This document shows, in pieces, positions 3,329 through 14,920 of a stretch of DNA of 35,416 nucleotides. The notes under the pieces were generated by a model. The model worked only from the letters and a program-made list of their open reading frames with translations, was not told the DNA's origin and made no database searches. Location: contig CAYHVJ010000002.1 in assembly GCA_964360085.1 (NCBI GenBank), forward strand, positions 1 through 35,416, written 5' to 3'. The stretch's first letter is position 1, and the number at the start of each line of letters is the position of its first letter. Both the position numbers and the translations under genes were made by a program. This DNA comes from an uncultured Candidatus Saccharibacteria bacterium (GTDB taxonomy: Bacteria > Patescibacteriota > Minisyncoccia > Phycocordibacterales > SBAW01).

Positions 3329-4012
3329 ATGGAAAAGAGAAGTGCATCAAATTTTTCTGACACCGAACTCCTTCAGATTGGTAAAACAAACCAAGAGTTG
3401 TCACGACAGATTCGAAGTGTCTTCAAACAGGGAATAGAGGGTATGTATTACGACATGGGCCAGGTTCAAAGAATATTGGCAGAGTTTACTGCACGAGGGG
3501 CAACTTTGATGACAGTGGCCAGCCTGTTTGCGATTCTCCCGGTTACCATGGGATATGAAAAGGTCTACTTGGCTTATTTTTTGATGTGGACATTCCCTTT
3601 CCTTTTAGTTTCCATAATATTTTTTTATCTTTCCTCTAAGAGGGCAAATATTACAAGATCAGGGAGTCTCCTTATTCCAGAAGGGTTGCCGGAAGAGCTT
3701 GTACTACTAAGGGCCCACTTTGTGGGTCTTGAAGAAATCTGCCGACAACAATATTCTTTATATCAAGAATCGCTCATATATTATCGATATAGTTCGACCG
3801 CAGTCTATAGTTATGTTATTTCTTTTGTACTAAATTATTATTTCTTTGTCTTTTTTGGAGAGCCTCCCCTTTTCTTTGCGATGATGGTTTTCGTCTTTTG
3901 TTGGGGGTTCGGAGTATACCTCATATGGTTGAGAGAAAAAGGGTCTCAAAGTAAAGCCTTCGGATCTTCTTTTTTCGAACCCGATAAGGAAAACCAAACT
4001 CCGAGTAGGTAG
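3329..4012 (+). CDS. hypothetical 4-TM membrane protein with about 50-aa soluble N-terminus
   Basis: Four hydrophobic helices: ATLMTVASLFAILPVTMGY, VYLAYFLMWTFPFLLVSIIFFYL, AVYSYVISFVLNYYFFVFFG and PLFFAMMVFVFCWGFGVYLIWL. An alternative start is ATG 3293. The 3203 start crosses the terminator and was rejected. Confidence 0.6.
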   Translation: MEKRSASNFSDTELLQIGKTNQELSRQIRSVFKQGIEGMYYDMGQVQRILAEFTARGATLMTVASLFAILPVTMGYEKVYLAYFLMWTFPFLLVSIIFFYLSSKRANITRSGSLLIPEGLPEELVLLRAHFVGLEEICRQQYSLYQESLIYYRYSSTAVYSYVISFVLNYYFFVFFGEPPLFFAMMVFVFCWGFGVYLIWLREKGSQSKAFGSSFFEPDKENQTPSR

Positions 4013-4038
4013 CTAAATCCTTCATATTTGGTAGGCTT
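4012..4038 (+). repeat. 27-nt upstream element, copy 2 (before the 377-aa gene)
   Basis: GCTAAATCCTTCATATTTGGTAGGCTT contains TGgTAGGCT 10 nt before ATG 4048. Confidence 0.7.
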
Positions 4039-4047
4039 GAGTAACTT

Positions 4048-5181
4048 ATGGAAGTCTTGTTAAAAAGACTTGGTATTTCTGTCGAACATTTAAAGTGTCT
4101 CGATGAAGTATTTCGCGCTAACTCCCCTCTGTACAACCAGATGGAGATAAATATGACACGCGAGCTAGGTACCTATATGGATGAGATTGGCAGGGAACTG
4201 TATGCGGGGGGTAAACAGACCAGAGGAAATCCGACGCTAGCTCGTCAGATGATACTCGGCGATGTAGTTGAATATATTTTTACGGGTAGAGCGTACTATC
4301 ATGCCGCTCGCTCGGAGGATAATTTTAGAAATTTTTCTAAATTAGTACTCTATTGTGTAAATCAGCTCTTACTCTTAGACACCATTACAATAAATCCACA
4401 GCTCCGCCGCGCATATATAGAAAAACTTGAAGAAGTCATTCCTCTCGATGTGTTGTATGAAAAGGAAGGGGATAGAGATTTGGCAGAAGCACTTAAGACC
4501 TCTACTTTGCTTATCCGCCAAGCGGGCTGGGATCCATACGACACCTTTGTTGACTCTCTCCTTCCTAAAACCTTGGGTTGTCCCAAAGAGCTCGTAGTTT
4601 TTTTGGAACTTATTCGTCTCAAGAAAGGACTTATTATTCCGTTATTGCTCATTCAACGACTTTTTGGCGGCGGGAAGAAAATGGCACCACCCGATTTTCT
4701 TATCTTAAAGAGGAACAGAGAGAGTTTCGGTATCGAAGTTGGCTACGAAAAAGAAAAGCAGGGGAGGGAGTTTTCCATACAGACCTCGATTCCAACATTT
4801 GCAGTTGATTTAAAAAATCACATGCATAACCGTTGTCCTAAATGTGGAGCGAATATTTTATATTGTGATTCAGTTATCAGAAAATACGCGGACGGGACAC
4901 TGTGGGGTGAGTTGGATACGGAAGGGAGATACCGTTGCGGGCAGGATTGCCAAAATTTTGATGGAACTATATGTAGATTTTCTAATTACTACGGCAAGTA
5001 TCGCGGCCGGTGCTTCTATGGCACCCAAGAAGCGGGGGACGATCGAAAAGATATGCATTATCATGCTACTTGCGTGTTAGACGACAGTTATATTTTTCGT
5101 AATAAAGAGAGGCCAATCCGAGAACATATAGGAGATTTTTTCTGTCAAATTCCTGAAATAGAGGACATCTCTAGCCTATAG
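4048..5181 (+). CDS. hypothetical 377-aa protein: helical N-domain, PD...E nuclease-like segment, Cys-rich C-terminus
   Basis: APPDFLILKRNRESFGIEVGYEK (P215-D216...E230) resembles a PD-(D/E)xK core, but the ExK is not canonical. There are 9 Cys in the last 115 aa, including CPKC-x6-C and C-x3-C-x7-C. No family recognised. Confidence 0.6.
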   Translation: MEVLLKRLGISVEHLKCLDEVFRANSPLYNQMEINMTRELGTYMDEIGRELYAGGKQTRGNPTLARQMILGDVVEYIFTGRAYYHAARSEDNFRNFSKLVLYCVNQLLLLDTITINPQLRRAYIEKLEEVIPLDVLYEKEGDRDLAEALKTSTLLIRQAGWDPYDTFVDSLLPKTLGCPKELVVFLELIRLKKGLIIPLLLIQRLFGGGKKMAPPDFLILKRNRESFGIEVGYEKEKQGREFSIQTSIPTFAVDLKNHMHNRCPKCGANILYCDSVIRKYADGTLWGELDTEGRYRCGQDCQNFDGTICRFSNYYGKYRGRCFYGTQEAGDDRKDMHYHATCVLDDSYIFRNKERPIREHIGDFFCQIPEIEDISSL

Positions 5182-5191
5182 TTTTCTACGT

Positions 5192-5219
5192 TATCCACAC
5201 AACTTGTGTATGTTGTGTA
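5192..5219 (+). promoter_or_regulatory. upstream element shared with lexA (TTGTGTA tandem)
   Basis: TATCCACACAACTTGTGTATGTTGTGTA aligns with 12644-12670 TATCCCCAAACTTGTGTATATTGTGTA at about 24 matches in 28 columns with one gap. The core AACTTGTGTATRTTGTGTA matches 18/19. Confidence 0.55.
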
Positions 5220-5251
5220 TTTACATCAAATATTAGGTGTAAAATACACAT

Positions 5252-6844
5252 ATGGGGGATAATTACATCATGTCGCTCGTTTCGATTCCAGAGGCTTCTA
5301 AATGGGCATCTAGTCACCTCAAGAGAGAGGTTTCGCCCACTAATATTTCTTACCTCGTCCAATACGGGAAGGTTAAAAAACATGGCGAAAATGGTTCCAC
5401 AATGGTACATCTCGACGACCTTAAGAAATACTACGCTTCGTATACAGGCTCGCGAGAGTTGAGTTGGAAAAGTAAGCTAGGAAATGATTTAAATTGGGCA
5501 CTATCCTTTGATAATTTACGCGAAAAAGATACGACCAAGCATGTACATCGGTTGCATCCTTATAAGGGAAAGTACATCCCTCAGCTTGTAGAGTATTTTT
5601 TGGGGGAAACCATTGATGATTTTAAGAAGGGAACCTACTTTAAGACCGGGGATATTGTTCTAGATCCATTTCTGGGCTCGGGTACTACGGTAATTCAGTC
5701 ACTCGAGATGGGTATTCACAGTGTTGGTATAGATGTCTCTGAGTTCAATTGCATGATTGCAAGCGTAAAAGCTTCTCACTACGACTCCGACTATTTGCGC
5801 GCGGCAGTTCAAAAAATGCTTAACTCTCTAGAGTCTTTTGAGGATGATAACAAAATTGAGGAATTTGAGATTGAGCTTCTGTCTGAGCTTTCCGTGTTTA
5901 ATAATAAGCATTTTCCGGGTCATGATTTTAAATACAAATTAAACCAAGGCAACATAAAAGAAAGCATATTGGGCACAGAAAAAGAGAAAGTATTTCTTCC
6001 TACATACAATAAACTGGTAAAAAAATACTCAATTGTTTTAAATCAGAAGGACTCCGATTCCTTTTTGGATAAATGGTACTTATTTAATGTTCGTCGAGAG
6101 ATAGACCATGTGTTCGAGGCTATTAAAAAAGAGAAGGATGTCAAAACACGTAAAATTCTAGGTCTCATTTTGAGCAGGACAATACGTTCATGCCGAGCCA
6201 CCACTCATAGTGACTTAGCAACTCTTAAAGAGCCCCAAGTTACAACTTACTACTGTTTTAAGCATAAAAAGATTTGTAAGCCCCTCTTCTCTATCAAAAC
6301 AATGCTTAATCGCTATGCCGTCGATACTGCCGGCCGCATTGATGAGTTCAAAAAACTACGCAAACCCGCGCACTTCTCTATTTTAAAAGGGGATTCTCGC
6401 AAGGTGGATATTTTTGCTGGTACTGAAAAAACAAACAAAGAGTTTTCAAAAATCTTGAAAAAACAAAAAATTGCAGGAATATTCTGCTCCCCGCCGTATG
6501 TAGGTCAAATAGACTACCATGAGCAACATGCCTACGCGTACGACCTCCTAGGTTTTAAACGACATGATGACTTGGAAATCGGCCCTTTGTATAAAGGTCA
6601 GGGTCTCGAAGCACGGCAATCATATGTGCAAGGGATAGCAGATGTTCTAAACAACTGCAAGAAGTTTTTCAAAGAGGATTATGATGTATTTCTGGTTGCG
6701 AATGATAAATACAATCTCTATCCGCAAATTGCTGAAAAATCAGGCATGAAAATTGTAAACCAATTCAAGCGCCCAGTACTAAACCGCACCGAAAGGGATC
6801 GTACCCCATATTCAGAAATTATCTTTCACTTCAAATCCTCGTAG
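5252..6844 (+). CDS. site-specific DNA amino-methyltransferase (SPPY motif IV; probably N4-cytosine, possibly N6-adenine)
   Basis: Motif X/I is HPYKGKYIPQLV...GDIVLDPFLGSGTT (aa 138-146, nt 5663-5689). Motif IV is FCSPPY (aa 413-416, nt 6488-6499). About 265 aa lie between them, which is the alpha-class order with a putative TRD. An alternative start is ATG 5270. Confidence 0.85.
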   Translation: MGDNYIMSLVSIPEASKWASSHLKREVSPTNISYLVQYGKVKKHGENGSTMVHLDDLKKYYASYTGSRELSWKSKLGNDLNWALSFDNLREKDTTKHVHRLHPYKGKYIPQLVEYFLGETIDDFKKGTYFKTGDIVLDPFLGSGTTVIQSLEMGIHSVGIDVSEFNCMIASVKASHYDSDYLRAAVQKMLNSLESFEDDNKIEEFEIELLSELSVFNNKHFPGHDFKYKLNQGNIKESILGTEKEKVFLPTYNKLVKKYSIVLNQKDSDSFLDKWYLFNVRREIDHVFEAIKKEKDVKTRKILGLILSRTIRSCRATTHSDLATLKEPQVTTYYCFKHKKICKPLFSIKTMLNRYAVDTAGRIDEFKKLRKPAHFSILKGDSRKVDIFAGTEKTNKEFSKILKKQKIAGIFCSPPYVGQIDYHEQHAYAYDLLGFKRHDDLEIGPLYKGQGLEARQSYVQGIADVLNNCKKFFKEDYDVFLVANDKYNLYPQIAEKSGMKIVNQFKRPVLNRTERDRTPYSEIIFHFKSS

Positions 6845-6890: not shown

Positions 6891-7682
6891 ATGGCGCTTT
6901 CGTCAGCTACCAAGAAGAAAATCCACGATTTCTTGAAGGAAAAAGTGGAGAAGAAAGTAAGTACATACACTTTGAGTGGAATGGACTCCGCGAAGCCTTT
7001 TCAGTACTCCTTGTTTACAAAATAAGGATACTTAGTTAAGGGGTTTATACACGGGTGTGAGACAGGCATGGGTAATTGGCATGAAACTATTGCAAAAATG
7101 GTATCTAGTGGGAATTTTGTGCACGCGAAAAAGTTACAGGGCAAATCTAGACTTGCAGGCGTTGTTACGGTGAAGGCTCAAAAAACATTTGAAGACATCC
7201 TTAGCGATCTAGACAGTGTTAGAAGGCGTCCAGACCATAAGAAGGAATCTCTTGAAATATATAAAGCAAGTACAAAAGGAAAAACAGTTGCCAGGTACCA
7301 GACTGTAGATTTGTACCTACAACGAAAAAATGGAGAAGAGATTTACTTGGAGATAAAAGGCCCGAAGCCAAATAAAAATGAGATGAGGGCAGCGAAAAGA
7401 GATTTGCTAGAAATTTATGCAATGAGAGCAGCGGCGGGTAAACGAGTAAAAATATTTCTCGGTATGTACTATAACCCGTACTTTCCCAGAAAGTATGATA
7501 GATGGACGTGCTTAAAGTTTTTCGATAATGGGCAGGATTTTTTGGTAGGTAAAGATTTTTGGGATTTCCTAGGTGGCAAAGGTGCCTATGAAGATTTGAT
7601 AACAATTTATGAGAGTGTGGGTAAAGAAATACGTCCTGCTTTAGAAAAGAAATTGAAAAGCATGAAGGGGAGTAAAAGATAA
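6891..7682 (+). pseudogene. PD-ExK type II restriction-endonuclease-like gene interrupted by one in-frame TAA (7023-7025)
   Basis: ORF 6891-7025 (44 aa, ...KPFQYSLFTK*) and ORF 7068-7682 are in the same frame, since 7068-6891=177. The catalytic pattern is VD81LYL-x-EIYLE95IK97GPKPN (nt 7308-7358). The ELK/EIK-x-PKPN look recalls the TdeIII family from memory only, unverified. Confidence 0.6.
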
Positions 7683-9546: not shown

Positions 9547-9822
9547 ATGAGTACGATAAATTATCGTCAGCTCGAGCGCATTGTAAAAGGCTTCGCTAAT
9601 CACCGGCGCCTGCAGATTCTAGAACTGCTCCGGCAAAGGCCGGAGCTGTCCGTCGTCGACATTTCCGAGACACTCAAGATAGGGTACGAGAACGCCTCCG
9701 ACCATCTGCGAAAGATGGCTATCGCCGGCCTGTTGCTAAAACGATACGAAGGCAACATCGTCCGCCACAAACTCACTCCCCGCGCCGAATCTATTCTAGT
9801 GTTTTGCAAAAGACTGCAATAG
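9547..9822 (+). CDS. ArsR/SmtB-family winged-helix transcriptional regulator
   Basis: FANHRRLQILELL...SVVDISETLKIGYENASDHLRKMAIAGLL is the classic ArsR HTH pattern. No ELCVC-type metal site was seen. Confidence 0.8.
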   Translation: MSTINYRQLERIVKGFANHRRLQILELLRQRPELSVVDISETLKIGYENASDHLRKMAIAGLLLKRYEGNIVRHKLTPRAESILVFCKRLQ

Positions 9823-10242: not shown

Positions 10243-10454
10243 TGCGGCGGGAGAGGAGAGGCTAGGGTATAGTGAGGATATGAATAACAAAAGAAGCGGC
10301 GGGAGGATGGACTTTAACGCGCGGCGTCCGCAGGCCTCGCGCATGCAGCCTGTTGTGCGCAAGGCAGGCATGCGCAATGCCAAAAAACCAAAGGGCGGCA
10401 AATAGGCAGGCAAACTGAGGCGCACACCCAATCTTCATGCGGCTTCATGTATCA

Positions 10455-10781
10455 ATGAAGGGTATGATATTTTTTCTTTTGGTCGGGGCTATACTCGGCG
10501 CTTTATCGGTTATTTTTGTCCTGCAGAACATTGTCCCTATCACGGTTACCTTTTTGACTTGGCAGATAGAGGGCTCGCTCGCGGTCGTATTGTTTTTGGC
10601 GATGATGAGCGGGATGTTTGTCGGGTTGTTGATGATTTTGCCCGGCCTTATCCGCGATGAGTTCCGGTACTCCAAGCTCAGGCAGGAAAAAAAGGAGGTC
10701 GAAGACGAGCTAACCACTACGCGCAAGGTTATCAACGAGGTGGCCGTCAACACCGCGGCGGCAGGACCGACTGTACTATAA
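10455..10781 (+). CDS. LapA-domain (DUF1049) inner-membrane protein
   Basis: Two TM helices with the ...FVLQN...VTFLTWQIEGSLAVV... pattern, then a charged coiled tail. Alternative starts are 10437 and 10464. Confidence 0.6.
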   Translation: MKGMIFFLLVGAILGALSVIFVLQNIVPITVTFLTWQIEGSLAVVLFLAMMSGMFVGLLMILPGLIRDEFRYSKLRQEKKEVEDELTTTRKVINEVAVNTAAAGPTVL

Positions 10782-10792
10782 TTAAACCGTTT

Positions 10793-11314
10793 ATGAAAAC
10801 GTCTGCTCTTATCGGGGTACTAGTAGTCGGGCTCGCCGGCATCGGCGTCTTTTATATTTAGACTACTCCACTGCAAGCGCCGAGCCCCGGAGGAAATTGG
10901 GTAGCCTGCACCGCCGACGCCATGCAGTGCCCCGACGGCTCTTATGTCGGCCGCACGGGCCCCGACTGCGAGTTTGTGTGTCCGACGGCCAGCTCAACAT
11001 CTTCTGGTATCAAAGGCACTGTCATGGCTGGCCCAACTTGCCCCGTCGAGCGCGACCCGCCCGACCCGCAGTGCGCCGACAAACCAATCCAAACCAATAT
11101 TTGGATTTCGAGCAAAATAAATCCGCAGCAGGTTATAGCGACCGCCTCCAGCGACACCGAAGGTGCGTTTCAAGTCTCTCTCCCGCCAGGGGAGTATGTG
11201 ATACAAGCGGGGAGCTCCGGAGTGCCGTATCCGCGTTGTAACGACACGTCGGCCACCGTCGGCCCCGCCGGCTATACTGCTGTGACAGTAAGCTGTGACA
11301 CCGGCATACGATAA
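10793..11314 (+). pseudogene. membrane-anchored Cys-rich / carboxypeptidase-regulatory-like-domain protein interrupted by in-frame TAG (10859-10861)
   Basis: ATG 10793 encodes the TM anchor MKTSALIGVLVVGLAGIGVFYI, then TAG. The same frame then continues TTPLQAPSPGGNWVACTADAMQCPDGSYVGRTGPDCEFVCP... to 11314. The listed ORF 10922-11314 lacks any signal or anchor. Confidence 0.5.
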
Positions 11315-11326
11315 AAGGTGTCGTAT

Positions 11327-11355
11327 TTGACAGGCTAATTTATATAGTGTATAGT
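11327..11355 (+). promoter_or_regulatory. consensus sigma70 promoter (TTGACA-17 nt-TATAGT)
   Basis: -35 at 11327-11332 and -10 at 11350-11355. Followed by a 38-nt leader with a GGGGGA Shine-Dalgarno before ATG 11394. Confidence 0.6.
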
Positions 11356-11393
11356 GTCGGCAGACATCAGATTTTTTAGCAAAGGGGGAACAG

Positions 11394-11999
11394 ATGAAAA
11401 GTTTAGTAATCGCCGCGTTGGCGCTTGGTCTTGCAGCATGTAGCACAGTGCGGCCTGACTTTGCCGGCCAGCTCCAAGGCCCCGTGCCTCCGGAAGAGGT
11501 GCTGGAACTTGCTCAGCTCACCTCGGTGCCTGTGGTACCGCAGGCTCGGCAAGCGACGCCGGCGATAGACTTGGCCATGTACGGTCCGGACACTATCGTG
11601 GTCAGCACGCGCGAGCGCAGGCTGTATCACACCGACGATGCGGGTGTAACACGCGTATATCGCGTCGGTGTCGGCCGCCCCGGCTTTACATGGGGCAAGA
11701 CGACGAAGATTTCCGCCAAAAAGGAGTGGCCCGAGTGGACCCCTCCGGAGGAGATGAGAGCGCGCGAGTTCATGGAGAATGGCCGCCTTCTCCCCGCACG
11801 CATGGAGGGCGGACCCGATAATCCGCTCGGCGCGCGAGCTCTCTACTTAGGCTCGACGCTCTACCGCATCCACGGCACCAACAACCTAGCCTCAATAGGG
11901 CGGGCGGAATCCTCAGGATGCTTCCGGATGATGAACAACGATGTCATCGACCTATACCGACGCGTGCGCGTCGGCACAAAAGTGGTCGTGCTCAACTAG
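11394..11999 (+). CDS. L,D-transpeptidase (YkuD domain) lipoprotein
   Basis: Lipobox LAACS. The YkuD catalytic region is YRIHGTNNLASIGRAESSGCFRMMNNDV. Confidence 0.85.
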   Translation: MKSLVIAALALGLAACSTVRPDFAGQLQGPVPPEEVLELAQLTSVPVVPQARQATPAIDLAMYGPDTIVVSTRERRLYHTDDAGVTRVYRVGVGRPGFTWGKTTKISAKKEWPEWTPPEEMRAREFMENGRLLPARMEGGPDNPLGARALYLGSTLYRIHGTNNLASIGRAESSGCFRMMNNDVIDLYRRVRVGTKVVVLN

Positions 12000-12005
12000 C
12001 GCAAA

Positions 12006-12029
12006 GGCTCCCATTGGGGAGCCTTTTTT
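12006..12029 (+). terminator. rho-independent terminator
   Basis: GGCTCCCC-att-GGGGAGCC followed by TTTTTT. Confidence 0.7.
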
Positions 12030-12056
12030 CTTTGTCTGTCGTATAATACTTTTTGC

Positions 12057-12641
12057 ATGGGAAAAATAATTTTAGGCTTAGCGGCAGTTGCCGCAGTGCT
12101 GGGCGCGGGTTATTGGTTTTTATTTATGAATGAACAAATTATGCAAGAAAGTACAAAAGAAAGTACAAAAGCGACGCTGCACACTACCAAGGGCGACGTT
12201 GTTATCGAGTTGCTCGGCGCAGACGCGCCCGACACGGTGGCGAACTTTACAAAGCTCGCAGGGAGCGGCTTTTATGACGGCACCAAGTTCCACCGCGTCA
12301 TCAAGGGCTTTATGATCCAAGGCGGCGACCCTTTGAGCAAAGACGACGCCAAGGCGGCACAGTGGGGGACAGGCGGCCCGGGCTACCAGTTTAAAGACGA
12401 GATACGCCCCGGCAACCGCAACGACATCGGCACCATTTCGATGGCCAACGCCGGCCCGAACACCAACGGCTCGCAGTTCTTTATCAACACGGCGGCCAAT
12501 AACTTTCTTGACACCAAGCACACCGTCTTCGGCAGGGTAGTGGCAGGCCTAGACGTGGTCAAGGCGATAGAAACAACCCCAACAGGGTCAAACGACCGCC
12601 CTGTAGAGCCCATGGTCATCACCTCTATTACGCTCGAGTAA
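12057..12641 (+). CDS. peptidyl-prolyl cis-trans isomerase, cyclophilin type, membrane-anchored
   Basis: FHRVIKGFMIQGGDP, MANAGPNTNGSQFFI and HTVFGRV motifs, plus an N-terminal TM helix. Confidence 0.9.
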   Translation: MGKIILGLAAVAAVLGAGYWFLFMNEQIMQESTKESTKATLHTTKGDVVIELLGADAPDTVANFTKLAGSGFYDGTKFHRVIKGFMIQGGDPLSKDDAKAAQWGTGGPGYQFKDEIRPGNRNDIGTISMANAGPNTNGSQFFINTAANNFLDTKHTVFGRVVAGLDVVKAIETTPTGSNDRPVEPMVITSITLE

Positions 12642-12643
12642 GA

Positions 12644-12670
12644 TATCCCCAAACTTGTGTATATTGTGTA
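12644..12670 (+). promoter_or_regulatory. lexA upstream element (tandem TTGTGTA), candidate operator
   Basis: TATCCCCAAACTTGTGTATATTGTGTA. A further AAACTTGTG at 12681-12689 overlaps the TGcTAAACT -10 box (12688-12696). Confidence 0.5.
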
Positions 12671-12704
12671 GTTGCGCGCAAAACTTGTGCTAAACTATGC
12701 GTAT

Positions 12705-13391
12705 ATGGGACCTCTAAATAAATCGCTGACGGGCAAGCAGAAGCGTGTTTTGGACAATATCCAGCTGTATATCAAAGCCAAGGGCGAGCCGCCGACTCTG
12801 GACGAACTGCGGCAGAACCTCGGGTTTAAGTCGCTGCGCACGGTGGTGCAATATATCGAGACGCTGGAGCGCAAGGGCTATGTCGTGCGCCGCCGGTACT
12901 CGCACCGCAACATCGAGTTGCGCACGGTTGATGCCGAGGGCCGCACAGCGATGCTGGTGTCGGTGCCGGTTGTTGCCAATGTCGGTTGCGACGACCTCTC
13001 GGTCTTTGTGCAAGAGCAGTCGGACGAATTTTTGCAGGTGGACAAGCAGATAGTCGACGAGGTGCACGGCGAGATAGTCGCGGTGCGCGCGGTCGGCGAC
13101 AGCATGGCCGACGCGGGGGTTAAAAGCGGCGACTATATTTTGGTGCAGTTTACCGACAAGGTTAAAAGCGGCGACAGAGTGGCGGCGATTATCGGCGACA
13201 TGGTCACGGTCAAGCGCCTCGAGCGGCGCAACGGTGTTACAATTTTGTATCCGGAGAGCAAAGACCCGAAGTATAAACCGATAGTTTTGCGCGACAACTT
13301 TAAAATCGCCGGCAGAGTGCTGTGCATCATCCCCGCAGGAGTCGCCGAGATGGATGAGGTGGTGGCAGTCGAGGAAGAAGATTGGAGATGA
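12705..13391 (+). CDS. lexA: LexA repressor (S24 peptidase)
   Basis: The N-terminal winged HTH is LTGKQKRVLDNIQLYIKAKGEPPTLDELRQNLGFKSLRTVVQYIETLERKGYV. The C-terminal part has VGDSMADAG (Ser) and VKRL (Lys). Confidence 0.85.
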   Translation: MGPLNKSLTGKQKRVLDNIQLYIKAKGEPPTLDELRQNLGFKSLRTVVQYIETLERKGYVVRRRYSHRNIELRTVDAEGRTAMLVSVPVVANVGCDDLSVFVQEQSDEFLQVDKQIVDEVHGEIVAVRAVGDSMADAGVKSGDYILVQFTDKVKSGDRVAAIIGDMVTVKRLERRNGVTILYPESKDPKYKPIVLRDNFKIAGRVLCIIPAGVAEMDEVVAVEEEDWR

Positions 13392-14920
13392 CTCAAGCAC
13401 AAGCTCTACAAATACTTAAAACAGGGGCGAATGTTTTTCTCACCGGCGAGCCGGGGAGCGGCAAGACGCACACCATCAACACCTACATCAGCTGGCTGCG
13501 CGAGCGCGGGATAGAACCCGCTATTACCGCCTCGACCGGCATAGCCGCCACACACGTGGGCGGGATGACTATCCACGCGTGGAGCGGAATAGGCATCAAA
13601 AAAGAGCTCAGCGAGTGGGACTTGGAGGCACTGCTGGAGCGCGAGCCGCTGGTGCGGCGCGTGCGTTTGGCACACGTACTTATAATCGACGAAGTGTCGA
13701 TGCTCGACGCGCGCCTGCTGAGCTTGGTAGACCGCGCCGTGCGAACTCTGCGCGGCAACGAGCGGCCGTTCGGCGGCCTGCAGGTTATTTTTGTCGGCGA
13801 TTTCTTCCAACTGCCTCCCGTCTCCAAAGGCGAGCCGTCAAAATTTGCGTTCGAGTCGCCCAGCTGGGAGGAGGCAAACCCTCTGCATTGCTATTTAAAC
13901 GAACAGCACCGGCAGGAGGACGGCGTTTTTTTGGAATTGCTGGCCGGTCTGCGCGCGGGCACGCTGACCGAGAGCCATAAAAACGCGTTGCGTGCGCGCG
14001 CCGAGTATCCTGAGGACGGCGATTTGTCGACAAGGCTCTACCCGCACAATGCCGACGTCGACCGCATCAACGAGGAAGCGCTCTCAAAAATAGAAGGGGA
14101 AGCAAAGATGTTTGCAATGCGCTCCGAGGGCGGCAAGGCGCTGGTAGAAGCGCTTAAACGCGGATGCCTGTCGCCCGAGACGCTTGCACTCAAAGAGGGT
14201 GCCTCGGTGATGTTTACCCGCAACAATTTTGAGGCAGGCTACGTCAACGGCACGCTCGGGGTGGTTACCGGATTTTCTGAGAGCGGATTCCCGCTGGTGC
14301 GCACACGCGAAGGCGCGATGATAGAAGCAAGCCCCGAGGAGTGGCGCATCGACGACCGCGCGCGGACGCTGGCCAAAATAGTGCAGGTGCCGCTGCGGCT
14401 CGCGTGGGCCATTACGGTGCACAAGAGCCAAGGCATGTCGCTTGATGCAGCAGTGATGGACCTCTCGGCGGCGTTTGAGTACGGACAGGGGTATGTCGCT
14501 CTCTCTCGCGTACGGAGCTTAAGCGGGTTGTATCTCAGTGGTTTCAACGAGCGAGCGCTCGCCGTGCATCCGCAGATATTAAAAAAGGACTCGCATTTTA
14601 AAGACGCATCGGCGGCGGCCAGAAATACGTTTGTCGCGATGACATTCGACGAACTTACGGGTTTGCACAAACAATTTGTACAAAAAAGCGGCGGCAAAGA
14701 GCCCTCAAATAACAAACAAGACCAAAAATCCAAATTAGAAACGATACGCGCAAAGTTTCCGAACGCCTACAGAGCGTGGAGCAAGGAGGACGACGCGCGC
14801 CTGACGGAACTCTTCCGCAATAGCGCCAAAGTCTCTGTGTTGGTCAAGGAATTCGGCCGCCAGCGGGGCTCGATAAACTCCCGCCTTATAAGGCTGGGGC
14901 TAGTGGAGCCCGATTTATAG
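13382..14920 (+). CDS. PIF1/RecD-like SF1B DNA helicase with C-terminal HTH tail
   Basis: Walker A GEPGSGKTH, Walker B LIIDEVSMLD, FVGDFFQLPPV and ITVHKSQGMSLD. It overlaps the lexA stop by 10 nt. Confidence 0.8.
   Translation: MEMTQAQALQILKTGANVFLTGEPGSGKTHTINTYISWLRERGIEPAITASTGIAATHVGGMTIHAWSGIGIKKELSEWDLEALLEREPLVRRVRLAHVLIIDEVSMLDARLLSLVDRAVRTLRGNERPFGGLQVIFVGDFFQLPPVSKGEPSKFAFESPSWEEANPLHCYLNEQHRQEDGVFLELLAGLRAGTLTESHKNALRARAEYPEDGDLSTRLYPHNADVDRINEEALSKIEGEAKMFAMRSEGGKALVEALKRGCLSPETLALKEGASVMFTRNNFEAGYVNGTLGVVTGFSESGFPLVRTREGAMIEASPEEWRIDDRARTLAKIVQVPLRLAWAITVHKSQGMSLDAAVMDLSAAFEYGQGYVALSRVRSLSGLYLSGFNERALAVHPQILKKDSHFKDASAAARNTFVAMTFDELTGLHKQFVQKSGGKEPSNNKQDQKSKLETIRAKFPNAYRAWSKEDDARLTELFRNSAKVSVLVKEFGRQRGSINSRLIRLGLVEPDL

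What the first reader, a model, noticed from the sequence alone, without database searches (positions are those of the whole stretch)
5192..5260. Island methyltransferase and chromosomal lexA share an upstream element, raising the possibility of an SOS-linked R-M module
Seen: 5192-5219 (TATCCACACAACTTGTGTATGTTGTGTA) aligns with 12644-12670 (TATCCCCAAACTTGTGTATATTGTGTA) at about 24 matches in 28 columns. The core matches 18/19. Both regions continue to a TAAAAT/TAAACT box and an ATGGG start 6-8 nt later. The lexA copy has a further AAACTTGTG that overlaps its -10 box.

By rough estimate, an 18/19 match between two intergenic sites in 35 kb is unlikely by chance (order 0.1 or less over the whole window, and far less when restricted to upstream regions).

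Established: LexA autoregulates through operators in its own promoter. Operator sequences differ widely between phyla and can be direct repeats, such as GTTC-N7-GTTC in Alphaproteobacteria.

Inference: the tandem TTGTGTA-N2-TTGTGTA may be this organism's LexA box, which would put the methyltransferase or the defence island under DNA-damage control. Alternatively, the island captured a host promoter.
Basis: partly seen in the sequence, partly recalled or inferred. Interest (0 to 1): 0.6.

Follow-up and report, generated by a model that had tools for sequence, protein, structure and literature searches.

The report
lexA-type operator-promoter before restriction-modification methyltransferase
The DNA methyltransferase of a restriction-modification island in this tiny Parcubacteria (candidate phyla radiation, CPR) genome sits behind a copy of the promoter and probable repressor-binding site of the DNA-damage regulator gene lexA, and relatives have different restriction-modification genes behind the same promoter, so this defence locus is probably wired to the DNA-damage (SOS) response.

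Summary
Positions 5201-5219 and 12652-12670 match 18/19. No shuffle gave such a pair, and these are the only two tandem TTGTGTA-N2-TTGTGTA sites in the 575-kb genome.

The shared element is a composite promoter module:
- a DnaA-box-like TTATCCACA;
- 2-5 nt of spacer;
- the direct repeat TTGTGTAT-N-TTGTGTAT;
- 19 nt further on, a -10 box, then a leaderless or near-leaderless ATG.

65 of 74 lexA genes in 80 genomes of the genus carry the repeat just upstream, amid flanks that no longer align. It also precedes rarA in at least 7 genomes and a PIF1 helicase, which in this window overlaps the lexA stop. LexA lineages with a different recognition helix lack it. The repeat is therefore most probably the LexA operator. 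A direct-repeat LexA motif is already published for Patescibacteria.

The restriction-modification (R-M) link recurs:
- a C5-methylase/HaeII/Vsr operon in another species has the full module;
- a metagenome contig from a close relative has the same module at the same locus, with a different R-M cargo.

Caveats: recA has no box, the endonuclease here carries an in-frame TAA, no binding or expression data exist, and DnaA is a rival binder. Earlier notes of this scan reported the same repeat at lexA in other CPR genomes.

The parts
5191..5199 (+). TTATCCACA, a perfect DnaA-box consensus, 4 nt upstream of the repeat
   Evidence: The same 8-9-mer lies upstream of dnaA itself (contig C7:12460). All 37 distinct lexA promoters analysed have it 2-5 nt before the repeat.
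5204..5220 (+). Tandem direct repeat TTGTGTATG-TTGTGTAT, the inferred LexA operator of the methyltransferase promoter
   Evidence: 29.4 bits, the best site in the genome. It ends 19 nt before the -10, as in lexA promoters.
5240..5245 (+). -10 box TAAAAT; the ATG at 5252 follows 6 nt later (leaderless or near-leaderless)
   Evidence: This is the genus-wide promoter architecture.
5252..6844 (+). N6/N4 DNA methyltransferase of a TdeIII-type type II R-M pair; the alternative start at 5270 is the one shared with the G049 orthologue
   Evidence: PF01555, 8.6e-15. It is found in only 2 of 80 genus genomes. The G049 copy is 72% identical and has no box.
6891..7682 (+). TdeIII-family restriction endonuclease gene interrupted by an in-frame TAA at 7023-7025
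   Evidence: (PF09520, 1.6e-43 for 7068-7682).
12643..12651 (+). ATATCCCCA, the DnaA-box-like element of the lexA promoter (2 mismatches to TTATCCACA)
12655..12671 (+). Tandem direct repeat TTGTGTATA-TTGTGTAG, the inferred LexA operator (autoregulation)
   Evidence: 26.3 bits. It is conserved at 65 of 74 lexA genes of the genus.
12681..12696 (+). AAACTTGTG followed by TAAACT: extended -10 (TGTGc-TAAACT); the ATG at 12705 follows 8 nt later
   Evidence: The consensus ttgtg.ta...t lies 19 nt after the repeat in 37 lexA promoters.
12705..13391 (+). lexA (228 aa): winged-HTH plus S24 peptidase
13382..14920 (+). PIF1-like helicase gene overlapping the lexA stop, probably co-transcribed with lexA
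   Evidence: PF05970, 2.8e-31. Its G057 orthologue (56% identity) has its own tandem box.
12057..12641 (+). Cyclophilin gene ending just before the lexA promoter, the conserved right flank of the locus
   Evidence: The same order is seen in G016, G021 and metagenome contig L152.

Best explanation
Positions 5191-5251 hold a second copy of the genus-specific lexA promoter/operator module.

The tandem direct repeat TTGTGTAT-N-TTGTGTAT (core GTGTAT-N3-GTGTAT, period 9) is the binding site of this lineage's LexA. It lies over the -35 region, about -48 to -32 from a start at the ATG. Bound LexA therefore keeps RNA polymerase off both lexA (with the PIF1 helicase gene behind it) and the R-M methyltransferase. 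After DNA damage, RecA-stimulated LexA self-cleavage would release both promoters.

The TTATCCACA just upstream is a separate site, most simply a DnaA box.

The module belongs to a variable R-M locus a few kb upstream of cyclophilin-lexA. Related strains carry different R-M cargo behind the same module.

Shown: the sequences, their conservation, geometry and distribution, and the identities of the genes.

Inferred: that LexA is the binder, that binding represses, and that damage induces.
For: (a) Footprint at lexA. In 80 genus genomes, 65 of 74 lexA genes have TGTGTATNNTGTGTA (at most 1 mismatch) within 150 nt upstream on the same strand. Of 57 exact matches, 43 are at lexA. The flanks do not align. 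Even so, 37 distinct promoters give the consensus tT.tcCaca-(2-5)-TtGTGTAT.TTGTGTAtTg, followed after 19-21 nt by TGnTAnnnT.

(b) Regulon-like spread. The repeat, without TTATCCACA and at a different distance from the -10, precedes:
- rarA in G016, G069, G062, G047, G088, G090 and G095;
- a PIF1 helicase in G057, whose orthologue here overlaps the lexA stop.

(c) Covariation with LexA. All box-bearing lineages (LexA at least 61% identical) read SLRTVVQY in the recognition helix. LexAs at 46-51% identity read SLN or WPN there (E. coli reads SPN). Their promoters lack the repeat, and one shows ACTGTA-TT-TACAGT instead.

(d) Half-site resemblance. GTGTAT resembles the E. coli half-site CTGTAT (my own knowledge). 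It also resembles the EMSA-validated Balneolaeota direct repeat TTACACATATTTTWTACATA. The same paper cites the 2017 Patescibacteria study among cases where LexA evolved a direct-repeat motif (PMC7739468).

(e) Not a generic element. There are only two sites in this genome. In the genus there were 147 matches against 55 for the reversed control pattern (my tally).

(f) The R-M link recurs.
- G021 has the full module in front of a C5 methylase-HaeII-Vsr operon, 7 kb upstream of lexA.
- Metagenome contig L152 is 88% identical to this window across cyclophilin-lexA. It has the same module (TTATCCACAAACTTGTGTATGTTGTGTATTTACA) at the same locus, followed by a C5 methylase, a D12 methylase and an HNH nuclease.
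- Contig L126 has the module with yet another gene behind it.
- The G049 orthologue of this methylase lies on a different contig from lexA and has no module.
Against: - No binding, footprint or expression data exist.
- recA of this genome has no box. uvrA's 5' end and rarA are not assembled. No Y-family polymerase was found. Within this genome, the only support from another repair gene is the PIF1 helicase behind lexA.
- The repeat unit TGTGTAT is 7/9 identical to a DnaA box (TGTGnATAA), and a perfect DnaA box sits beside it, so DnaA could be the binder. In G071 a tandem hit lies in the dnaA-dnaN spacer among DnaA boxes.
- LexA here lacks the canonical Ala-Gly cleavage site. The conserved VGCDD aligns to E. 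coli VAAGE, so damage-induced cleavage is unproven.
- The endonuclease is interrupted by a stop, so the regulated unit may be an orphan methylase.
- Only 2 of 80 species representatives have an R-M gene behind the module.
- G000, L152 and L126 probably share one origin.
Confidence: 0.62

Rival explanations
1. The whole element is a cluster of DnaA boxes: one consensus box plus two abutting weak 9-mers in the opposite orientation. On this reading lexA, the helicase, rarA and the methyltransferases answer to replication status through DnaA, not to LexA.
For: - TTATCCACA is the exact DnaA-box consensus. The same motif lies upstream of dnaA (C7:12460) and 50-80 nt upstream of several other genes.
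- TGTGTAT matches TGTGnATAA at 7 of 9 positions, and the period of 9 equals two abutting 9-mers.
- In G071 a tandem hit lies in the dnaA-dnaN spacer, where its second unit, TGTGTATAA, is a perfect box.
Against: - Boxes in the dnaA region and the dnaA-dnaN spacer keep A at position 8 (TGTGnATA-). The tandem units read C, G or T there, most often TGTGTATCT and TGTGTATTG, and never end in AA.
- What is conserved extends 5' of the 9-mer (TTGTGTAT), which DnaA boxes do not require.
- rarA sites (TGTGTACCTTGTGTAG) would be very poor DnaA boxes.
- The repeat is absent from LexA lineages with another recognition helix.
- The repeat is not found upstream of dnaA in this genome.
Confidence: 0.15
2. The module is a promoter copy that came along passively. 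R-M cassettes insert and recombine in a hot spot next to lexA, and one picked up or kept the lexA-type promoter, with no selected SOS control of restriction-modification.
For: - R-M genes cluster around lexA in several genomes. In G077 and G070 a methylase plus partner sit directly after the lexA stop with their own -10. In G020 a methylase lies 2 kb upstream.
- In G021 both modules carry the minority variant TTATCCCCA, which would fit a local copy.
- Only 2 of 80 species representatives have the arrangement. The endonuclease here is broken.
Against: - Outside the boxes the two promoters of this genome share no similarity, so this is not a recent duplication.
- Each module is separately conserved between this genome and L152. 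The methylase module keeps CCACA, spacer G and TTTACA. The lexA module keeps CCCCA, spacer A and GTTGC. Meanwhile the cargo behind the methylase module was replaced.
- The methylase box is the best-scoring site in the genome.
Confidence: 0.13
3. The repeat is bound by another, unidentified regulator, or is an unusual -35/upstream promoter element unrelated to DNA damage.
For: - No canonical -35 is present at either promoter, so the repeat could serve promoter recognition.
- Other small HTH proteins are encoded nearby, for example the ArsR-type gene at 9547-9822.
Against: - There are two sites per genome, not many.
- The association is near-exclusive with lexA and DNA-transaction genes.
- The repeat covaries with the LexA helix.
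- rarA promoters carry it at a different distance from the -10.
Confidence: 0.1

Closest known systems
Patescibacteria LexA regulon and LexA-binding motif (Sanchez-Osuna, Barbe and Erill, Environ Microbiol 2017, PMID 28618189)
   Same: A canonical LexA in CPR bacteria with a direct-repeat rather than palindromic motif. PMC7739468 cites this paper among cases where LexA evolved direct-repeat recognition. It is autoregulated and has a small regulon.
   Different: The paper is not held in the library. I therefore could not check whether its motif is this GTGTAT-N3-GTGTAT (period 9) or another repeat. Notes from this scan report TTCGG-N6-TTCGG in other CPR lineages. I cannot tell whether it reports R-M genes in the regulon.
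Balneolaeota LexA direct-repeat box TTACACATATTTTWTACATA (Kilic et al., BMC Genomics 2020, PMC7739468)
   Same: An EMSA-validated LexA site built from head-to-tail units that contain TACACA/TACATA, the reverse complement of TGTGTA/TATGTA. Its regulon includes lexA and a helicase.
   Different: A different phylum, a longer period, and a regulon that includes recA and translesion polymerases. No such polymerase gene was found in this genome, and recA has no box.
Alphaproteobacterial SOS box GTTC-N7-GTTC and the E. coli box CTGT-N8-ACAG
   Same: A LexA operator over the core promoter of lexA and repair genes. The E. coli half-site CTGTAT differs from GTGTAT by one base (my own knowledge).
   Different: Orientation (direct versus inverted), period (9 versus 11 or 16) and regulon content all differ.
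C-protein-controlled type II R-M systems (PvuII, AhdI, Esp1396I)
   Same: Transcription of R-M genes is set by a repressor or activator bound at operators in the R-M promoter.
   Different: There the regulator is encoded inside the R-M unit and times establishment in a new host. Here the presumed regulator is the host's LexA and the signal would be DNA damage.
LexA-controlled mobile or accessory functions (integron integrase intI, colicin operons, some prophages) and restriction alleviation of type I systems after DNA damage (my own knowledge)
   Same: Accessory or variable genes are placed under the host SOS repressor, and DNA damage changes the restriction/modification balance.
   Different: No integrase or recombination site was seen at this locus. 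Restriction alleviation in E. coli acts by proteolysis of HsdR, not by LexA at the R-M promoter.

Membership tests
LexA repressor (PF01726 + PF00717) | N-terminal LexA-type winged HTH and C-terminal S24 peptidase domain | tested here: met
   LexA_DNA_bind 8.7e-14 and Peptidase_S24 4.3e-19; full-length match to E. coli LexA structures (1jhf, 9e-22).
LexA repressor (PF01726 + PF00717) | Catalytic Ser-Lys dyad | tested here: met
   alignment: gdSMad aligns with E. coli GMSMKD (Ser119), and vtvKRl aligns with VTVKRL (Lys156).
LexA repressor (PF01726 + PF00717) | Ala-Gly (or Cys-Gly) self-cleavage site | tested here: inconclusive
   the aligned segment reads PVVANVGCDD in all 36 LexA sequences aligned, from this genus and more distant relatives (the most distant read VGCDN), against E. 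coli PLVGRVAAGE. No Ala-Gly is present at the aligned position, so the scissile bond cannot be assigned from sequence.
LexA repressor (PF01726 + PF00717) | RecA present as co-protease | tested here: met
   recA is found, split over the ends of contigs C31 and C19.
SOS box (LexA operator) | Conserved in the promoter of lexA itself across relatives (autoregulation) | tested here: met
   present at 65 of 74 lexA genes; fixed 19-21 nt before the -10.
SOS box (LexA operator) | Recurs at promoters of DNA repair or recombination genes | tested here: inconclusive
   It is present at rarA in at least 7 genomes, at one PIF1 helicase and far upstream of one uvrA. It is absent at recA of this genome. uvrA and rarA promoters are not assembled here.
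SOS box (LexA operator) | Bound by LexA, with genes induced by DNA damage | not testable with these tools
Type II restriction-modification system | Adjacent methyltransferase and cognate endonuclease, both intact | tested here: not met
   The methylase is intact. The TdeIII-family endonuclease frame 6891-7682 has a TAA at codon 45. The G021 and L152 systems appear intact.
DnaA box | 9-mer TTATNCACA, also found at dnaA or the origin of the same organism | tested here: met
   5191-5199 is TTATCCACA. CTATCCACA and TTCTCCACA lie upstream of dnaA at C7:12460. Binding was not tested.

The most novel reading that the evidence does not exclude
Next to lexA, this Parcubacteria lineage keeps an expression slot with a LexA-operated promoter that also carries a DnaA box. 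Different restriction-modification cassettes are exchanged behind that promoter. The cell's restriction/modification balance would then be gated by DNA damage and replication status through host regulators, rather than by the systems' own controller proteins. This would be an SOS-gated defence-cassette platform in bacteria with minimal genomes.
Probability: 0.3. Interest if true: 0.75.

Novelty: new variant of a known kind. Interest (0 to 1): 0.55.

Why it matters
How R-M systems are kept from harming their host is usually explained by regulators the systems carry themselves. Here the host's DNA-damage repressor, possibly together with the replication initiator, appears to hold the promoter of interchangeable R-M cassettes.

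If true, this would tie defence and self-methylation to genome stress in CPR bacteria. These bacteria have very few regulators and depend heavily on R-M for phage defence.

It would also give a clean, testable LexA operator for a large uncultured genus: 17 bp, two units, period 9. The regulon would be unusually small (lexA-PIF1, rarA), with recA, where its promoter could be read (this genome only), and polymerase genes outside it.

Tried and rejected
1. Generic promoter element: rejected. There are only two tandem sites in the genome, and TTGTGTA itself is not enriched (32 copies).

2. recA, uvrA and polymerase test in this genome.
- The recA promoter (C31) has no box.
- The uvrA 5' end is missing at a contig end.
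- rarA was not found.
- No Y-family polymerase was found.
So the test had to be run in relatives.

3. Third operator at AAACTTGTG (12681-12689): judged to be the TGTG of an extended -10, since the same ttGTGcTAnnnT follows the repeat in most lexA promoters.

4. Palindrome reading (CACAA-N-TTGTG between the DnaA-like box and unit 1): rejected as the core, because the spacer varies from 2 to 5 nt.

5. Recent duplication of the lexA promoter including its first codons: no similarity was found outside the boxes.

6. The methylase carrying the promoter with it: rejected. The 72%-identical G049 orthologue has no module.

7. The simple sigma-70 scan calls no canonical -35/-10 pair at either site, which fits extended -10 or -10-only promoters.

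8. Literature.
- The 2017 Patescibacteria paper is not held.
- Searches for LexA-controlled R-M found nothing direct.
- My recollection that B. subtilis ydiOP methylases belong to the LexA regulon could not be checked.

Full report
**1. The observation**

Both sites were read directly.

| Feature | Site A (methyltransferase) | Site B (lexA) |
|---|---|---|
| DnaA-box-like 9-mer | TTATCCACA, 5191-5199 | ATATCCCCA, 12643-12651 |
| Spacer | CAAC | AAC |
| Tandem repeat | TTGTGTATGTTGTGTAT, 5204-5220 | TTGTGTATATTGTGTAG, 12655-12671 |
| Gap to the -10 | 19 nt | 19 nt |
| -10 box | TAAAAT, 5240-5245 | TGC-TAAACT, 12688-12696 |
| Start codon | ATG 5252, 6 nt after the -10 | ATG 12705, 8 nt after the -10 |

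- The shared 19-mer occurs twice in the window and never in 100 shuffles, even with three mismatches allowed.
- In the whole assembly (575 kb, 63 contigs, 88% complete) it occurs only at these two places.
- A weight matrix from lexA promoters of relatives scores the two sites 29.4 and 26.3 bits. The next best site in the genome scores 14.1.
- The downstream genes are an N6/N4 DNA methylase (5252-6844), followed by a TdeIII-family endonuclease, and a canonical LexA (12705-13391).

**2. What the element is at lexA**

The genome is a Parcubacteria/Paceibacteria MAG. Its relatives are labelled Kaiserbacteria, Adlerbacteria or Nomurabacteria.

- I extracted lexA upstream regions from 23 genus genomes. 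Their flanks are unalignable, yet all keep the same layout.
- Over all 80 genus genomes held, 65 of 74 lexA genes have TGTGTATNNTGTGTA (at most 1 mismatch) within 150 nt upstream on the same strand.
- Of 57 exact matches, 43 are at lexA.
- By my tally of the table, the pattern has 147 matches against 55 for its reversed control.
- The nine lexA genes without a hit have variants such as AAGTGTATCGAGTGTAT or lie at contig ends.
- Thirty-seven distinct promoters give the consensus tT.tcCaca, 2-5 nt, TtGTGTAT.TTGTGTAtTg, then TGnTAnnnT after 19-21 nt.
- Both window sites fit this geometry exactly.
- The -10 is followed within 6-8 nt by the ATG, so the genes are leaderless or nearly so.

**3. Who binds the repeat**

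Four lines point to LexA.

- *Autoregulatory position.* The repeat lies over the -35 region of nearly every lexA gene in the genus.
- *Spread to other DNA-transaction genes.* The repeat alone, without TTATCCACA and only about 11 nt from the -10, precedes rarA in G016, G069, G062, G047, G088, G090 and G095. It lies inverted before rarA in G005.
  - It also precedes a PIF1-like helicase in G057. The orthologue of that helicase in this window (13382-14920, 56% identity) overlaps the lexA stop and is therefore probably co-transcribed with lexA.
  - One uvrA (G095) has a box far upstream, which is weak evidence.
- *Covariation with the recognition helix.* Every LexA at least 61% identical to this one reads SLRTV(V/T)QY in the recognition helix and has the repeat. 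LexAs at 46-51% identity read SLN or WPN there, like E. coli SPN. Their promoters lack both the repeat and the TTATCCACA, and one shows ACTGTA-TT-TACAGT.
  - An Asn-to-Arg change beside a C-to-G change in the half-site (CTGTAT to GTGTAT) is chemically plausible. This is an inference from my own knowledge of the E. coli complex.
- *Precedent.* LexA is known to have evolved direct-repeat motifs several times. PMC7739468 validates TTACACATATTTTWTACATA in Balneolaeota by EMSA. It also cites the 2017 Patescibacteria paper among direct-repeat cases.

**4. The DnaA rival**

- TTATCCACA is the exact DnaA-box consensus.
- The same motif lies upstream of dnaA itself (C7:12460). It also lies 50-80 nt upstream of several unrelated genes.
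- The repeat unit TGTGTAT matches a DnaA box at 7 of 9 positions.
- In G071 a tandem hit lies in the dnaA-dnaN spacer among DnaA boxes.
- Against DnaA as binder of the repeat:
  - True boxes there keep A at position 8 (TGTGnATA-). The tandem units carry C, G or T and never end in AA.
  - Conservation extends to the TT 5' of the 9-mer.
  - rarA sites (TGTGTACCTTGTGTAG) would be very poor DnaA boxes.
- My reading is that TTATCCACA is a separate, probably DnaA, site. Its variable 2-5 nt distance from the repeat also speaks against one rigid composite site.

**5. The restriction-modification link**

- The methylase is accessory. Only G000 and G049 of 80 genomes have it, and the G049 copy (72% identical, on a different contig from that genome's lexA) has no module.
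- The module therefore belongs to the locus, not to the gene.
- Three further observations show that the arrangement is not an accident.
  - *G021.* A C5 methylase, a HaeII endonuclease and a Vsr nuclease form an operon 7 kb upstream of lexA. The operon is preceded by TTATCCCCA-AGAC-TTGTGTATATTGTGTAT and, 18 nt on, TGC-TATTAT.
Contig L152 is 88% identical to this window across cyclophilin-lexA. It also shares the AbrB-like gene at the left end of the island. It has the same module at the same place, but the cargo is a C5 methylase, a D12 methylase and a convergent HNH nuclease.
  - *L126.* This contig has the module followed by yet another gene.
- Between G000 and L152 each module keeps its own peculiarities.
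  - The methylase module keeps CCACA, spacer G and TTTACA.
  - The lexA module keeps CCCCA, spacer A and GTTGC.
  - So both modules predate the split of these strains and survived a cargo replacement.
- R-M pairs also sit directly after the lexA stop in G077 and G070. They have their own -10 and no box.
- The lexA neighbourhood is thus a general R-M hot spot.

**6. Caveats**

- The endonuclease frame 6891-7682 carries a TAA at 7023-7025. The regulated unit here may be an orphan methylase, or the stop may be an assembly error.
- recA (5' end on C31) has no box. The regulon seems limited to lexA-PIF1, plus rarA in a subclade.
- LexA keeps the Ser-Lys dyad, but its cleavage region reads VGCDD instead of Ala-Gly.
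- No expression or binding evidence could be obtained.
- Only 2 of 80 species representatives have R-M genes behind the module.
- G000, L152 and L126 count as one origin.

**7. Comparison and novelty**

- A direct-repeat LexA operator in Patescibacteria is a known kind (2017 paper, not readable here).
- Earlier notes of this scan independently reported GTGTAT-N3-GTGTAT beside a DnaA-type box at lexA in an Adlerbacteria genome. They also reported head-to-tail TTGTGTAT repeats shared by lexA and a nuclease gene. My genus-wide counts confirm the first.
- What I did not find described is a LexA-type promoter held in front of interchangeable R-M cassettes. Another scan note reports LexA-methylase fusions in CPR R-M islands, which I did not check. 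If correct, that would be a parallel route to the same wiring.

**8. Verdict**

- The LexA-box reading is well supported in silico (about 0.75 for the repeat as the LexA site).
- SOS control of the methylase is probable (about 0.6 overall).
- I class it as a new variant of a known kind, of moderate interest.

Noticed in passing
G000 contigs C7:12460, C20:6897, C9:19042, C9:2169; window 9483 and 28126: TATCC(A/C)CA (DnaA-box consensus) is about 3-fold enriched in intergenic DNA. It sits 50-80 nt upstream of, and in the same orientation as, several unrelated genes: dnaA itself, an HNH endonuclease, an ArsR-type HTH gene and others. This suggests DnaA acts as a wider transcription factor in this reduced genome.
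   Followed up: partly
G000 contig C20:6896-6921: A third, partial copy of the module (TTATCCACAAACTTGTGTATTTACAT, a single repeat unit) lies 53 nt upstream of a Cys-rich HNH endonuclease gene.
   Followed up: partly
window 7023-7025: An in-frame TAA splits the TdeIII-family endonuclease (6891-7682), leaving the methylase possibly orphan. The G049 endonuclease is only 24% identical although the methylases are 72% identical.
   Followed up: yes
window 12705-13391 (LexA residues about 88-97): The LexA cleavage region reads PVVANVGCDD in the whole genus and in more distant relatives, in place of the Ala-Gly site of E. coli LexA. The Ser and Lys catalytic residues are kept.
   Followed up: partly
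L120 (G077:C25) and L121 (G070:C6): A roughly 280-aa N6/N4 methylase plus a partner gene is inserted directly after the lexA stop codon and, in G077, ahead of the PIF1 helicase. In G077 the partner is a DUF6996/DUF6997 protein. Each methylase has its own -10 box placed within a few nt of the lexA stop.
   Followed up: partly
L032, L062, L074, L075 (G051, G023, G060, G015); G000 contig C1:30750-30830: A conserved arrangement was seen: an array of AGTGGGA/TCCCACT repeats, then TTATCCACA, a terminator-like hairpin and TTGTGTATCTTGTGTGT. G000 has a related stretch with TGGGGATAACTTGTGTAT followed by AGTGGGA repeats. Function unknown.
   Followed up: no
window 4009-4036; L152 1950-1977; L126: A 28-nt promoter-like element (GTAGCTAAATCCTTCATATTTGRTAGGC, containing TGnTAGGC) precedes gene 4048-5181 here. 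In the two metagenome contigs it lies immediately upstream of the lexA-type module. So gene 4048-5181 looks inserted between this element and the module.
   Followed up: partly
L090-L092 (LexA 46-51% identical, other Patescibacteria): These lexA promoters lack the direct repeat and show short palindromes instead, such as ACTGTA-TT-TACAGT and CATGT-CTT-ACATG. Their LexA keeps Asn in the recognition helix.
   Followed up: no
G000 contigs C31:5277-5461 and C19:8986-9638: recA is split across two contig ends. Its promoter (TGTATAAAC, 4 nt, ATG) has no tandem box.
   Followed up: yes
L097 (G021:C3) 10353-12309: Upstream of the G021 R-M operon lie genes for a DUF6791-ThiF (E1-like) protein and a DUF6527 protein. 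The lexA-proximal region there looks like a wider defence island.
   Followed up: no
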